Notes under the pieces: model-generated
The model's database searches: none
What the model was told of the DNA's origin: nothing
What the model saw: the letters and a program-made list of their open reading frames with translations, nothing else
Shown: in pieces, positions 37,940 through 39,445 of the stretch
Numbering within the stretch: the first letter of the stretch is position 1
Layout of the letters: every line of letters starts with the position of its first letter
Source of the DNA: a virus
Virus record (IMG/VR): IMGVR_UViG_3300029913_000009
Location: 34,290 to 98,289 of that record
Length of the DNA stretch: 64,000 nucleotides
Reading direction: 5' to 3' (one strand)
Position numbers and translations under genes: made by a program

Positions 37940-39445
37940 TTACTTGTTGAACTCGATGAGGTAGCGGATGTTGGTCTGCGACGTGCGGTAGACAATCTGC
38001 TCGTCGTTGCGAACACCTGAGCGATTGGCGACTGCGTGGCAGGAGTCAAATCCATTCCTCTTGCAGTAGGATGCTGCACGGTTATCAGGTCCGGTCGGGA
38101 TGTAAGGCTTACCCATGGCAACATCCGCACGGAACATGTAGCAGTTGTTGTCCTTGCTGCCGCCGTCCCAATAGCCCTGTGAGTAGTTCAGGCTCTTGGT
38201 GGACTGGTCTGAGAAGTATACGCCGTTGTCGAACATGGCACCGCAAATCTGAGCGGAAGTTAACGCCCCCGGCAGGACAAAGCCGCGCTTGAGGATAGAC
38301 AGGATGTTGAACACGCGGGTACCGTGCCACAGTTCACGCACGTTACCAACCTTCTTACCGTCTGCATCGAACGCTTGAACCATGTGCGGGATGGTAACTT
38401 CGTACATCCGCACCGGCTTGAGACTGGAAGACGTGTGGCCGTAGTTCACGGTCGCGAAGAAGGACTTCCTGATGCGCTCCCAAATGGCCTTCTCAATGGC
38501 CTCATCCAGCAGCCGTAGCTTGCACTCGAAGAAGCTTTGCTGCTTGACAGCTTCAGGTGCCTTTGTGCCCGGTGCCTTGGCAGCTTCCTCAGCGTCCTTC
38601 ATGCGTTGCAATGCAAGGTCAACCGAAGTCTCCAACTGGTCAAGCAGTGAGTTCTGAGCGGCGATGTTGATGAAGTCTACATGCGCCCCACGCTTGTACC
38701 CGATGAACTGGGGGATGTTGCGAAGGTATTGGTCGAACAAGGTAATGTATGACTTGGAGTCGGTGTCGGCACGCTGGACAAAGGGAAGCATCCGGTCAAG
38801 AATCACACGACCTTCCTTGATGGCATCGAGCGTGAGCACGCCGAGGGGGGTCTTCACCATGCCGGTCTCAAGGTCAATGTCCATGCCACCACCGTCTACG
38901 CCCTTGTTGTCCTTGGACGTGGCAGCGACGAGTTCATGTCGGTTGGTTTCGGCCAGCTTTTTCACGAGAGCGGCGGTGATTTGGCACCCACCGGCAATCT
39001 CAGCGACGGCCAGCTTGCGGACTTGGTCGTTCGCCAGCTTCTGTCCCACTTGGATGGCGGTCGTCGGTGACGACTGAGTGGAGTTACCGATGGTCTTAAC
39101 TTCAGTGTAGTAGTCGTCACGCTTGCCCTTGCGAGACAGCCCGTCCAGACCTTGCCCCGAAGAGAGGCGGCTAATGACTTCCTTTTTGTTGGTATCGGTC
39201 TTGTCGGCTACCTTGCCAGCGATGGTGGTCACATCCCACATGATAAGTTGCTGGTCAGGCTTGGCCGCACCTACGCGACCCCATGTGATGCGAGTGTCAC
39301 CTGTCTCGGAGTTGTTCTTGTTGTTGGTCTCGGTGACGGGGGCAGACAGGCGCTCATACTTCCAAAATTTGTTGTTGTTGTCGGCGGTATTCACCGCGAC
39401 AAACATCTTAGCTTCGAGTATCCTCACATCCGTTGCAGTAGCCAT
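37940..39445 (-). CDS. poly(ADP-ribose) polymerase-like protein: WGR domain plus PARP catalytic domain
   Basis: N-terminal KFWKYERL...ITWGRVG is the WGR signature. C-terminal LWHGTRVFNILSILKRGF (H-G-T), GVYFSDQSTKS (Y-F-S) and QIVYR..YLIEF (catalytic Glu region) match the PARP H-Y-E pattern. Leaderless start after a promoter copy. Confidence 0.75.
   Translation of the reverse strand: MATATDVRILEAKMFVAVNTADNNNKFWKYERLSAPVTETNNKNNSETGDTRITWGRVGAAKPDQQLIMWDVTTIAGKVADKTDTNKKEVISRLSSGQGLDGLSRKGKRDDYYTEVKTIGNSTQSSPTTAIQVGQKLANDQVRKLAVAEIAGGCQITAALVKKLAETNRHELVAATSKDNKGVDGGGMDIDLETGMVKTPLGVLTLDAIKEGRVILDRMLPFVQRADTDSKSYITLFDQYLRNIPQFIGYKRGAHVDFINIAAQNSLLDQLETSVDLALQRMKDAEEAAKAPGTKAPEAVKQQSFFECKLRLLDEAIEKAIWERIRKSFFATVNYGHTSSSLKPVRMYEVTIPHMVQAFDADGKKVGNVRELWHGTRVFNILSILKRGFVLPGALTSAQICGAMFDNGVYFSDQSTKSLNYSQGYWDGGSKDNNCYMFRADVAMGKPYIPTGPDNRAASYCKRNGFDSCHAVANRSGVRNDEQIVYRTSQTNIRYLIEFNK

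What the first reader, a model, noticed from the sequence alone, without database searches (positions are those of the whole stretch)
37940..39445. Phage-encoded PARP-like enzyme (WGR plus catalytic H-Y-E domain)
The WGR signature (KFWKYERL ... ITWGRVG) is followed by a PARP catalytic domain with H-G-T (LWHGTRVFN), Y-F-S (GVYFSDQS) and a C-terminal catalytic Glu region (YLIEF). This is a PARP2/3-like minimal architecture.

PARPs are rare in bacteria and rarer in phages. The protein could ADP-ribosylate host or phage proteins or DNA, and NAD+ depletion or counter-defence roles are plausible.

The same genome carries an ART-fold-like motif in the 911-aa protein (902-3637) and a NadE-fragment remnant (54221-54442). 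Both hint at NAD-centred biology.
Basis: partly seen in the sequence, partly recalled or inferred. Interest (0 to 1): 0.7.

Follow-up and report, generated by a model that had tools for sequence, protein, structure and literature searches.

The report
Jumbo-phage PARP2-like ADP-ribosyl transferase
A large bacteriophage carries an intact relative of the human DNA-break sensors PARP2 and PARP3, a kind of phage gene already listed in surveys but never tested in the laboratory.

Summary
Window 37940-39445 (minus strand) is a 501-aa gene with three domains in the order WGR, helical regulatory domain (HD) and ADP-ribosyltransferase (ART).

- **Catalytic triad:** it is H374-Y410-E482. The Glu in "YLIEF" (E498) aligns with a Lys in PARP1, and the true catalytic Glu sits in "NDEQIVY".
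- **Closest solved relatives:** both the family profile and a confident structure model match PARP2 and PARP1 best over all three domains.
- **DNA-break sensing:** the PARP2 residues that recognise a DNA break and its 5'-phosphate are conserved across the family.
- **Selection and origin:** the gene is under purifying selection (dN/dS about 0.14). It belongs to a tailed phage of about 248 kb or more, because a large terminase lies just outside the window.

The most likely function is an NAD+-dependent ADP-ribosyltransferase switched on by nucleic-acid breaks. Its targets and its biological role are inferred only.

Phage PARPs are already known from surveys (2014, 2021, 2022) and from PHROG 23333, so this is a new member of a known kind. 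No experimental work on one was found.

The same window also encodes a major vault protein homologue. PARP-MVP linkage turned out to be sporadic: 2 of 75 PARP loci and 1 of 80 MVP loci.

The parts
37940..39445 (-). Complete PARP gene, 501 aa plus stop codon
   Evidence: ORF. Pfam PARP E 5.3e-21. PHROG 23333 E 8.6e-44. dN/dS 0.136 against the 80%-identical homologue in L002. The identical protein is found on 19 contigs from several metagenomes.
39101..39421 (-). WGR domain, about residues 9-115, including NNNK (23-26), W55-G56-R57, K78, K82 and Y113
   Evidence: The profile alignment to the PARP2 and PARP1 WGR domains starts at profile position 12. The model has pLDDT 91-96 over residues 11-100. 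The PARP2 DNA-contact residues N127, N129, K130, W151, R153, K179, K183 and Y201 (PMC6294510) map to these residues, and their conservation was counted. Single-sequence Pfam WGR gives only E 0.025.
39020..39100 (-). Low-confidence linker, about residues 116-142, longer in this sub-clade than in most relatives
   Evidence: pLDDT is below 50 for residues 122-142. The alignment shows a lineage-specific insertion shared only with the closest homologues.
38546..39019 (-). Helical regulatory domain (HD, PARP_reg), about residues 143-300
   Evidence: Pfam PARP_reg covers residues 192-289 at E 1.8e-4, below the cut-off. phmmer aligns residues 190-423 with the PARP1 HD plus ART. The profile aligns with the PARP1 and PARP2 HD. 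The model has helices over 139-290.
37946..38533 (-). ART (PARP catalytic) domain, about residues 305-500
   Evidence: Pfam PF00644 covers residues 323-499. The NAD-pocket residues H374, G375, Y410, K417, S418 and Y421 align with the PARP1 residues in its HGS and GIYFADMVSKSANY motifs and are invariant or nearly invariant in the family.
38324..38326 (-). Codon for catalytic His374
   Evidence: Aligns with the His of PARP1's LWHGS motif. Present in 50 of 50 family members.
38216..38218 (-). Codon for catalytic Tyr410
   Evidence: Aligns with the Tyr of PARP1's GIYFAD motif. Present in 50 of 50 family members.
38000..38002 (-). Codon for catalytic Glu482, the true third triad residue
Evidence: Aligns with PARP1 E988 in 'YNEYIVY'. 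Present in 50 of 50 family members.

Best explanation
The gene encodes an active NAD+-dependent ADP-ribosyltransferase of the PARP1-3 type, carried by a huge tailed phage.

Proposed mechanism:
1. The N-terminal WGR domain binds a nucleic-acid break, most likely a nick or end with a 5'-phosphate, as in PARP2 and PARP3.
2. Binding relieves the inhibition that the helical HD domain imposes on the active site.
3. The H374-Y410-E482 centre then transfers ADP-ribose from host NAD+ onto the enzyme itself, onto proteins near the break, or onto the DNA end.

In the infected cell the activating breaks could come from host nucleases cutting phage DNA, from degradation of the host chromosome, or from replication and packaging intermediates. 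The enzyme sits in a phage region rich in nucleic-acid repair genes: ATP-dependent DNA ligase, RNA ligase, CCA-adding enzyme and phosphatases. The most likely role is therefore to mark, shield or help process broken nucleic acid for the phage's benefit.

What is shown: the domain architecture, the intact catalytic and NAD pocket, conserved break-recognition residues, purifying selection and phage origin.

What is inferred: break-dependent activation, by homology with PARP2 and with the DNA-dependent bacterial enzymes. The targets, poly- versus mono-ADP-ribosylation and the biological role are also inferred.
For: - **Architecture:** WGR-HD-ART is supported by Pfam, by profile search against solved structures (PARP2 5.9e-32, PARP1 2.5e-31, aligned from the WGR domain into the ART domain for PARP2 and to its end for PARP1) and by fold (pLDDT 82, pTM 0.72; top Foldseek hits 7aeo_A, 6x0l_P, 7s6h and 4dqy_C).
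- **Catalysis:** the triad is present in 50 of 50 family members, and the NAD-pocket residues K417, S418 and Y421 are conserved.
- **Break sensing:** the PARP2 break and 5'-phosphate residues (PMC6294510) map to N23 (50/50), N25 (48/50), K26 (47/50), W55 (34 W and 11 Y), R57 (49/50), K78 (46/50), K82 (50/50) and Y113 (50/50). N127 and Y201 are reported there as conserved in PARP2 and PARP3 but not in PARP1.
- **Experimental precedent:** bacterial WGR-PARPs from Herpetosiphon and C. difficile CD160 show DNA-dependent poly(ADP-ribosyl)ation (PMC5966428; PMC4245714).
- **Selection:** dN/dS is 0.136.
- **Stable position in the lineage:** a ClpB-like AAA lies upstream and a CCA-adding enzyme lies 4-6 kb downstream in relatives with 59-65% identical PARPs.
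- **Repair genes in the window:** DNA ligase, HNH-RNA ligase, CCA-adding enzyme and His phosphatase and an HD-type phosphohydrolase (PHROG).
- **Phage origin:** a large terminase lies next to the window.
Against: - No biochemical data exist for this protein or for any phage PARP in the library searched.
- The residue two positions before the catalytic Glu is Asn (N480, 49/50). PARP1 and PARP2 have Tyr there, and so does a Herpetosiphonaceae homologue. PARP4 has Asp at that position and is named a mono-ADP-ribosyltransferase in the PDB entries. Polymer formation is therefore uncertain.
- W55 of the WGR motif is not strictly conserved.
- No ADP-ribose eraser (macro, PARG, ARH or NADAR) was found among the 44 window ORFs scanned with Pfam. 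A reversible signalling cycle is therefore not demonstrated, although most of the roughly 248-kb genome was not visible.
- The neighbourhood evidence amounts to collinearity of related genomes. It does not show a conserved operon. Across 78 PARP loci the neighbours vary.
Confidence: 0.7

Rival explanations
1. Host-takeover modifier. Like T4 Alt, ModA and ModB, the enzyme ADP-ribosylates host proteins such as RNA polymerase to redirect the cell. In this reading WGR serves only to tether the enzyme to DNA, and it adds chains where the T4 enzymes add single units.
For: This is the role suggested for jumbo-phage PARPs in PMC7824862. Phage ARTs of other families work this way (PMC9503650). No eraser was found in the window.
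Against: The whole PARP2-type break and 5'-phosphate recognition set and the autoinhibitory HD domain are conserved. That conservation is unexplained if break sensing were irrelevant. The gene is not in a T4-like Alt or Mod context and is not fused to head proteins.
Confidence: 0.2
2. Nucleic-acid end capping. The main product would be ADP-ribose attached to 5'-phosphorylated DNA or RNA ends, with no protein-linked poly(ADP-ribose). This could protect phage ends from host exonucleases, or block the reuse of host DNA or RNA fragments.
For: PARP2 is reported to ADP-ribosylate DNA as well as proteins (abstract of PMC8190142). RNA-end ADP-ribosylation by ART-family enzymes is also known (titles, PMC6582358). 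The 5'-phosphate-contacting Tyr and Lys residues are invariant. The gene lies among RNA and DNA repair genes, and a KptA/Tpt1 gene lies 3 kb from the PARP in relative L219. NADAR genes lie within 10 kb of the PARP in 10 of 78 loci. From my own knowledge, NADAR enzymes remove ADP-ribose from nucleic-acid bases.
Against: There is no direct evidence. No NADAR or macro gene was seen in this window. The bacterial homologues that were tested auto-PARylate (PMC5966428).
Confidence: 0.2
3. Vault-like partnership. The PARP would work with the phage major vault protein homologue (60360-62915), as PARP4 does inside eukaryotic vaults.
For: - MVP and PARP are both in this window, 21 kb apart.
- They are 6 kb apart in the huge phage LR756500, with a macro-domain gene beside the MVP.
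- They are 1.4 kb apart on the same strand in L026 and 8 kb apart in L055.
- PARP4 was the top single-sequence match among solved structures.
- The vault shoulder binds NAD+ and ADP-ribose (bioRxiv 10.64898/2026.05.01.722283).
Against: - Linkage is sporadic: MVP lies within 10 kb in 2 of 75 PARP loci, and PARP in 1 of 80 MVP loci. That is no stronger than for other accessory genes, such as RNA ligase at 6 of 75 and His phosphatase at 7 of 75.
- The contigs with the closest MVP relatives (L079-L082) are not among the PARP hits.
- LR756501 has an MVP but no PARP within 20 kb.
- With the family profile, PARP2 and PARP1 (about 1e-31) beat PARP4 (1e-21).
- The protein has WGR where PARP4 has BRCT. 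It ends at the ART domain, so it has no VIT, vWA or MVP-interaction (MINT) domain.
Confidence: 0.05
4. NAD+ depletion weapon, or exclusion of a second infecting phage. Hyperactivation on DNA damage would drain NAD+ to shut down the host or abort a competing infection.
For: PARP hyperactivation consumes NAD+ (general knowledge). NAD+ is central to phage-host conflict (PMC9503650). A CN_hydrolase fragment nearby hints at past NAD-related gene content.
Against: No NAD+ salvage or synthesis genes were found in the window to protect the phage itself. The regulated WGR-HD design argues for a targeted signal and against bulk NAD+ hydrolysis. There is no toxin-antitoxin or defence-island context.
Confidence: 0.08

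Closest known systems
Human PARP2 and PARP3 (ARTD2, ARTD3)
   Same: The same three-domain core, WGR-HD-ART, with an H-Y-E triad. They are the best profile and fold matches. The PARP2 break and 5'-phosphate residues are conserved, including N127 and Y201, which PMC6294510 reports as conserved in PARP2 and PARP3 but not in PARP1.
   Different: Only about 19-20% identity in the structural alignments. There is no disordered basic N-terminal tail. A lineage-specific linker follows the WGR domain. Asn replaces Tyr two residues before the catalytic Glu. No HPF1 partner or eraser has been identified. The setting is a phage, not chromatin.
Bacterial WGR-PARPs (Herpetosiphon aurantiacus HaPARP, Clostridioides difficile CD160 CdPARP)
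   Same: WGR-(PARP_reg)-PARP_cat proteins of about 430-450 aa. Experiments show DNA-dependent auto-PARylation (PMC5966428; PMC4245714).
   Different: The best match in 185,579 species-representative genomes is only 38% identical, and only 54 loci were found. All relatives above 45% identity are on uncultured or viral contigs. A Herpetosiphonaceae homologue keeps Tyr at the position two residues before the catalytic Glu (Y-D-E), whereas this clade has N-D-E.
Annotated phage PARPs (PHROG 23333; Xanthomonas phages XacN1 and Xoo-sp13, Stenotrophomonas CM1 and RAS14, Klebsiella FBKp34, Cellulophaga phi4:1)
   Same: The same family (PHROG E 8.6e-44). All carriers are large phages of 137-595 kb. These PARPs are noted in surveys (PMC4245714, PMC7824862, PMC9503650).
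   Different: Only 28-37% identity to any deposited phage. This sub-clade lacks the roughly 220-aa downstream partner gene that is present in 28 of 78 viral PARP loci.
PARP4 (vault PARP)
   Same: H-Y-E ART domain. PARP4 was the top single-sequence match among solved structures (2e-15). An acidic or amide residue replaces Tyr two positions before the catalytic Glu. An MVP homologue is encoded in the same genome.
   Different: No BRCT, VIT, vWA or MINT domains, and WGR is present instead. The profile ranks PARP4 ten orders of magnitude below PARP1 and PARP2. Genomic linkage to MVP is sporadic.

Membership tests
DNA-dependent PARPs (PARP1-3 clade, WGR-HD-ART) | PARP-type ART catalytic domain with an H-Y-E triad | tested here: met
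   Pfam PF00644 E 5.3e-21. H374, Y410 and E482 align with the PARP1 triad, including E988, and are present in 50 of 50 family members.
DNA-dependent PARPs (PARP1-3 clade, WGR-HD-ART) | Helical regulatory domain (HD, PARP_reg) directly before the ART domain | tested here: met
   Pfam PARP_reg E 1.8e-4, below the cut-off. Profile alignment through the PARP1 and PARP2 HD. Helices over residues 139-290 in the model, and full-length Foldseek hits.
DNA-dependent PARPs (PARP1-3 clade, WGR-HD-ART) | WGR domain with DNA-break contact residues | tested here: met
   The single sequence is weak (E 0.025). The profile aligns with the PARP2 and PARP1 WGR domains, and fold hits to 7aeo and 6x0l cover WGR. 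Equivalents of N127, N129, K130, W151, R153, K179, K183 and Y201 are conserved.
DNA-dependent PARPs (PARP1-3 clade, WGR-HD-ART) | Catalytic activation by DNA breaks | not testable with these tools
   This needs an enzyme assay with and without 5'-phosphorylated nicked or blunt DNA.
DNA-dependent PARPs (PARP1-3 clade, WGR-HD-ART) | Synthesis of poly(ADP-ribose) chains as opposed to mono-ADP-ribosylation | not testable with these tools
   The triad alone does not decide this, since PARP4 is H-Y-E but is named a mono-ADP-ribosyltransferase. N480 replaces the PARP1 and PARP2 Tyr.
Phage PARP family (PHROG 23333) | Significant match to the family profile over most of its length | tested here: met
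   E 8.6e-44, protein residues 113-499 against profile positions 64-382 of 383.
Vault PARP (PARP4, vPARP) | BRCT N-terminus and a VIT-vWA-MINT C-terminal region that binds MVP | tested here: not met
   Pfam finds only WGR, PARP_reg and PARP, and the protein ends 2 residues after the ART match.
Vault PARP (PARP4, vPARP) | Closest sequence affinity to PARP4 among the PARPs | tested here: not met
   The profile gives PARP2 5.9e-32 and PARP1 2.5e-31 against PARP4 1.1e-21.
Vault PARP (PARP4, vPARP) | Consistent association with MVP | tested here: inconclusive
   Both genes occur together in the window, LR756500, L026 and L055. But MVP is near only 2 of 75 PARP loci and PARP near 1 of 80 MVP loci within 10 kb. 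Genome-wide co-occurrence and physical binding were not testable.
T4 Alt, ModA and ModB type phage ARTs (R-S-E clade) | R-S-E catalytic motif and Alt/VIP2-type fold | tested here: not met
   The protein is H-Y-E and matches PARP profiles only.

The most novel reading that the evidence does not exclude
Some huge phages may build a vault-like MVP shell that works together with ADP-ribose chemistry (PARP, macro and NADAR enzymes) and RNA-repair enzymes. This phage's PARP would be one of its enzymatic components, making it a viral counterpart or forerunner of the eukaryotic vault's MVP-PARP4 pairing. The evidence does not exclude this, because MVP and PARP lie 1.4-21 kb apart in four independent phage contigs and the vault shoulder binds NAD+ and ADP-ribose. 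But the linkage is sporadic, and the PARP lacks any PARP4-type MVP-binding domain.
Probability: 0.05. Interest if true: 0.85.

Novelty: new member of a known kind. Interest (0 to 1): 0.4.

Why it matters
PARP1-3 are the textbook eukaryotic sensors of DNA breaks. In bacteria and phages their role is unknown, and I found no experimental work on any phage PARP.

This gene belongs to a large clade that is apparently phage-borne. The clade keeps the whole PARP2-type machinery for 5'-phosphate recognition and autoinhibition. It would therefore be a compact, tractable system of about 500 aa with no accessory domains. With it one could ask what break-activated ADP-ribosylation does during infection: repair or shielding of phage DNA, capping of nucleic-acid ends, or host takeover. 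It also bears on how the eukaryotic enzymes originated.

As a database finding it is modest. The family is already catalogued, and the annotation "poly(ADP-ribose) polymerase" is already attached to many homologues.

Tried and rejected
1. **Special kinship with vault PARP4:** suggested by the top single-sequence match among solved structures. Rejected by the profile search and by domain content.
2. **A conserved PARP-MVP module:** tested on 75 viral PARP loci and 80 viral MVP loci with 10-kb flanks. Only 2 and 1 co-occurrences were found, no more than for other accessory genes. LR756501 has an MVP with no PARP within 20 kb. Retrieval used short peptide patterns and 10-kb flanks, so divergent PARPs and longer-range linkage are missed.
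3. **A conserved operon partner:** neighbour clustering found a roughly 220-aa protein downstream of the PARP in 28 of 78 loci. It is absent from the window and from LR756500, and it has no Pfam match.
4. **ADP-ribose erasers in the window:** none among the 44 ORFs scanned with Pfam.
5. **The 180-aa phrog_2072 protein:** no Pfam match and no match to a solved structure.
6. **The 'ART-like motif' in the 911-aa protein:** no Pfam ART domain and no match to solved structures. Only one homologue was found, and the AF2 model was unusable at pLDDT 38, so no fold search was run.
7. **DUF2828 protein next to phage MVPs as a TROVE/Ro-like protein:** a profile search against solved structures found nothing.
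8. **Known RNAs:** Rfam at gathering thresholds found none in the window, including vault RNA, Y RNA and TnpB-associated RNAs.
9. **Nucleotide similarity:** megablast of 30-50 kb against deposited phages found no match.
10. **Transcription signals:** the promoter and terminator scan around the gene was at chance level.
11. **Walking past the window end:** the look-up from the 168-aa ORF found no record, and the MVP contigs shown end about 1 kb upstream of the MVP.
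Full report
**Observation**

Every quoted motif is present: KFWKYERL at residues 26-33, ITWGRVG at 53-59, LWHGT at 372-376, GVYFSD at 408-413 and YLIEF at 495-499.

The similarity to PARPs is far beyond chance:
- The Pfam PARP catalytic domain scores E 5.3e-21, 75.5 bits against a cut-off of 26.7.
- PHROG 23333 scores E 8.6e-44.
- phmmer against solved structures returns only PARPs.
- The large protein collection holds more than 1000 homologous clusters. 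Many are 420-500 aa long and carry WGR, PARP_reg and PARP together.

**Domain architecture**

For the single sequence, WGR (E 0.025) and PARP_reg (E 1.8e-4) fall below Pfam's thresholds. I therefore tested them in two other ways.

First, I built a profile from 50 family members (alignment A3) and searched it against solved structures. It matches PARP2 at 5.9e-32 and PARP1 at 2.5e-31, in one continuous alignment from the WGR domain through the helical domain into the ART domain.

Second, an AlphaFold2 model built on the same alignment is confident (mean pLDDT 82, pTM 0.72). Only the segment 122-142 and a few short stretches (residues 1-3, 298-301 and 396-402) are disordered. Its best Foldseek matches are full WGR-HD-ART chains: PARP2 on DNA (7aeo_A at 2e-23, 6x0l_P) and PARP1 on a double-strand break (7s6h, 4dqy_C).

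One addition is that a helical regulatory domain lies between WGR and ART.

**Catalytic triad**

The alignment to PARP1 places H374 opposite the His of PARP1's LWHGS motif and Y410 opposite the Tyr of GIYFAD. It places E482, in "RNDEQIVY", opposite E988 in "YNEYIVY". All three are present in 50 of 50 family members.

But it aligns with Lys in PARP1's final strand "YLLKL", so it is not the catalytic residue.

The nicotinamide-pocket residues K417, S418 and Y421 align with the K-S-A-N-Y stretch of PARP1 and are conserved. Nothing in the active site suggests an inactive enzyme.

**Break-sensing residues**

Obaji et al. (PMC6294510) showed which PARP2 residues recognise a DNA break:
- Y201, K130 and K183 recognise the 5'-phosphate.
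- K179 contacts the DNA backbone, and its mutation drastically reduces activation by double-strand-break models.
- W151 stacks on the terminal ribose.
- R153 and N127 hold the 3' side and are needed for activation.
- N127, N128, K130, K179 and Y201 are conserved in PARP2 and PARP3 but not in PARP1.

Through the profile alignment, these residues map to the phage protein as follows (conservation counted):

| PARP2 residue | Phage residue | Conservation in 50 family members |
|---|---|---|
| N127 | N23 | 50 |
| N129 | N25 | 48 |
| K130 | K26 | 47 |
| W151 | W55 | 34 W, 11 Y |
| R153 | R57 | 49 |
| K179 | K78 | 46 |
| K183 | K82 | 50 |
| Y201 | Y113 | 50 |

This is the strongest argument that the phage enzyme senses 5'-phosphorylated breaks in the PARP2/3 manner. 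The step from conserved residues to DNA-dependent activation is an inference. [quoted passage not shown]

**Poly or mono?**

The triad does not decide this. Two residues before the catalytic Glu this clade has Asn (N480, 49 of 50). PARP1 and PARP2 have Tyr there, and so does a Herpetosiphonaceae homologue (Y-D-E). PARP4 has Asp and is named a mono-ADP-ribosyltransferase in the PDB entries. I leave this open.

**Is it a working gene, and is it in a phage?**

Against the 80%-identical homologue in L002, dN/dS is 0.136 at dS of about 1. Against a 59%-identical homologue it is 0.25. The identical protein is encoded on 19 contigs from several metagenomes, always in the same neighbourhood. Its cluster member list records a contig of 247,905 bp.

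The window itself holds no capsid or terminase gene. However, contigs that carry the identical 911-aa protein of window 902-3637 continue into a 1059-aa large terminase subunit (phrog_36964, E 9.5e-34, plus four other terminase PHROGs). The window is therefore part of a huge tailed phage.

Among 185,579 species-representative cellular genomes only 54 loci matched, and the best was 38% identical. These came from Gemmobacter, a Paracoccus plasmid, Variovorax, Armatimonadota, Blastocatellia, Planctomycetota and mycobacteria. Every relative above 45% identity is on uncultured or viral contigs, many of 100-450 kb. Among deposited phages, 16 of 50,697 records carry a homologue, at 28-38% identity. 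All of them are genomes of 137-595 kb.

**Genomic context**

The gene lies in a long block of genes on one strand. Upstream are a TnpB/Cas12f-like gene and a ClpB-D2-like AAA ATPase. Downstream are small ORFs, an HNH endonuclease and a CCA-adding enzyme.

Elsewhere in the window are an HNH-RNA ligase fusion, an ATP-dependent DNA ligase, a histidine phosphatase and an HD-type phosphohydrolase.

Relatives with 59-65% identical PARPs keep a loose collinearity, with the AAA ATPase upstream and the CCA-adding enzyme 4-6 kb downstream. One relative also has a KptA/Tpt1 RNA 2'-phosphotransferase 3 kb away. In the 80%-identical relative L002, however, only the PARP gene itself matched the window.

Across 78 PARP loci the neighbours vary:
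- RNA ligases in 11 loci.
- NADAR in 10 loci.
- Metallophosphoesterases in 12 loci.
- Topoisomerase II in 8 loci.
- An unannotated protein of about 220 aa directly downstream in 28 loci. It is absent from this window.

This fits the description of NAD/ADP-ribose genes and RNA-repair genes as accessory islands in large phages (PMC9503650, PMC7824862). It does not define an operon. No macro, PARG, ARH or NADAR domain was found among the 44 window ORFs scanned with Pfam.

**The vault lead**

The 851-aa ORF at 60360-62915 is a major vault protein homologue (MVP_shoulder E 4e-23, Vault_3 E 3.9e-10). PARP4, the vault PARP, was the top single-sequence match among solved structures. I therefore tested whether this phage PARP is a vault-type PARP.

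Evidence in favour:
- In the huge phage LR756500, a macro-domain gene, MVP, an HD/kinase protein, an HNH-RNA ligase, an AAA ATPase, an ATP-grasp protein and a 424-aa WGR-PARP lie within 12 kb.
- In L026, the PARP and MVP lie 1.4 kb apart on the same strand.
- In L055, they lie 8 kb apart.

Evidence against:
- MVP is within 10 kb in only 2 of 75 viral PARP loci, and PARP in 1 of 80 MVP loci. That one locus is LR756500 itself.
- This is no more than for other accessory genes, such as RNA ligase (6 of 75) and His phosphatase (7 of 75).
- The contigs with the closest MVP relatives (57-60% identity) are absent from the PARP hits.
- LR756501 has an MVP with no PARP within 20 kb.
- The family profile prefers PARP2 and PARP1 over PARP4 by ten orders of magnitude.
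- The protein has no BRCT, VIT, vWA or MINT region.

I conclude that the phage PARP is not a PARP4-type enzyme. PARP-MVP co-residence is sporadic and is best explained by both genes being accessory genes of huge phages. The retrieval methods used (short peptide patterns, 10-kb flanks) cannot exclude a looser, genome-level association.

**What is known**

Phage PARPs were listed by Perina et al. in 2014, in Aeromonas phage Aeh1 and Cellulophaga phage phi4:1 (PMC4245714). The 2021 jumbo-phage review mentions them, with XacN1 as the example, and suggests they act like other phage ARTs but add chains (PMC7824862). The 2022 survey counts them among the most frequent viral ART families (PMC9503650). 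A full-text search for "phage PARP", "phage-encoded PARP", "viral PARP" and "bacteriophage PARP" found no paper. I therefore found no experimental characterisation of any phage PARP.

The 73-aa ORF at 54221-54442 (minus strand) matches the first 47 positions of the CN_hydrolase profile (E 6.8e-6). It is a truncated fragment, compatible with the N-terminus of a glutamine-dependent NAD synthetase but not specific to it.

The conserved LYHVT, GGGEIYAF and ISIVVF segment of the 911-aa protein could not be assigned:
- Pfam finds no ART domain.
- It has no match to solved structures.
- Only one homologue was found.
- The structure model was unusable at pLDDT 38.

**Verdict**

The gene is an intact PARP2/3-like WGR-HD-ART enzyme of a huge tailed phage, under purifying selection. 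It is most likely activated by nucleic-acid breaks. It is a new member of a known but experimentally unexplored family, and I rate its interest as moderate.

Noticed in passing
window 60360-62915 (-): An 851-aa major vault protein homologue (MVP_shoulder E 4e-23, Vault_3 E 3.9e-10). Relatives occur in the huge phages LR756500, LR756501 and LR756503 (38-40% identity) and in at least 116 IMG/VR viral loci (36-60% identity). This is far more than the two gut phages reported as the 'first viral MVPs' in bioRxiv 10.1101/2023.11.10.566534, which also found no vPARP there.
   Followed up: partly
L108-L156 (IMG/VR MVP loci), e.g. L120:7985-9520, L117:14701-15507, L113:17002-18378: In viral contigs the MVP gene sits in an RNA-repair island. 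Its neighbours are a 511-aa DUF2828+DUF7788 protein just upstream (34 of 80 loci), an RlaP nucleotidyltransferase (41), an RNA ligase with a PHA02142 OB domain (29), metallophosphoesterases (30 and 19), an AAA_33 kinase (19), cREC_REC (21) and NADAR (19). Many loci come from one metagenome, so the counts are inflated. My impression that DUF2828 is TROVE/Ro-like got no support from a profile search against solved structures.
   Followed up: partly
L001 (LR756500 10000-45000): 8930-20872; L026: 9992-16318: These are the two tightest PARP-MVP clusters. LR756500 has macro, a 181-aa ORF, MVP, a CoaB-like ORF, HD+AAA_33 kinase, HNH-RNA ligase, an AAA ATPase, an ATP-grasp protein and a 424-aa WGR-PARP, all on one strand. 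L026 has PARP, three small ORFs, MVP and then the roughly 220-aa 'PARP partner'.
   Followed up: partly
28 of 78 viral PARP loci, e.g. L052:11586-12245, L026:15671-16318: An unannotated protein of about 220 aa lies directly downstream of the PARP on the same strand. It has no Pfam match and, by eye, C-terminal AbrB-like repeats. It is a candidate partner for one PARP sub-clade. It is absent from the window and from LR756500.
   Followed up: partly
window 40736-41944 (-) and 39850-40735: A TnpB/Cas12f-like gene (Cas12f1-like_TNB E 3.8e-9, OrfB_IS605 E 8e-7) lies two genes upstream of the PARP, followed by about 880 bp without a convincing ORF where its guide RNA and element end would be expected. 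Rfam found nothing. The element is present in all six contigs examined for this phage, but not in relatives with 61-80% identical PARPs.
   Followed up: no
window 902-10779 (-) and L220:13080-16259: Three giant proteins of unknown function (911, 1325 and 867 aa) lie next to the large terminase. The 1325-aa protein carries an Xre_MbcA_ParS_C antitoxin-type domain at residues 938-986 (E 5.9e-7), a domain that neutralises RES/ART-type NAD-targeting toxins. The 911-aa protein has DUF7249 and a conserved LYHVT/GGGEIYAF segment of unknown fold. They are candidates for packaged, injected anti-defence proteins.
   Followed up: partly
window 54221-54442 (-): A 73-aa ORF matches only positions 1-47 of the 256-position CN_hydrolase profile (E 6.8e-6). 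It is a truncated remnant that is still called as a gene on related contigs.
   Followed up: yes
window 33021-34295, 43709-44377, 47278-48318, 52383-53228, 55372-56265 (all -): A set of nucleic-acid repair genes: CCA-adding enzyme, HD-type phosphohydrolase (phrog_19425), HNH endonuclease fused to an Rnl2-type RNA ligase, histidine phosphatase and ATP-dependent DNA ligase. A relative (L219) adds KptA/Tpt1 and an Asp/Asn-type tRNA synthetase.
   Followed up: partly
window 27263-30319 (-): A 1018-aa fusion of an SNF2/ResIII-like helicase with a C-terminal SAM-dependent methyltransferase (Methyltransf_11 E 2e-7).
   Followed up: no
window 57064-57606 (-): A 180-aa protein of phrog_2072 (E 5.5e-39, unknown function) with a conserved 'FVFGSNxxGRHGGGAA' motif. 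It has no Pfam match and no match to solved structures.
   Followed up: partly
window 22204-22779 (-) and 45421-45864 (-): A GmrSD_N (DUF262, ParB-like) nuclease domain protein (E 2.8e-19) and a Lar-like restriction-alleviation protein (E 2.7e-5, below the cut-off). Both are possible players in phage-host DNA conflict.
   Followed up: no
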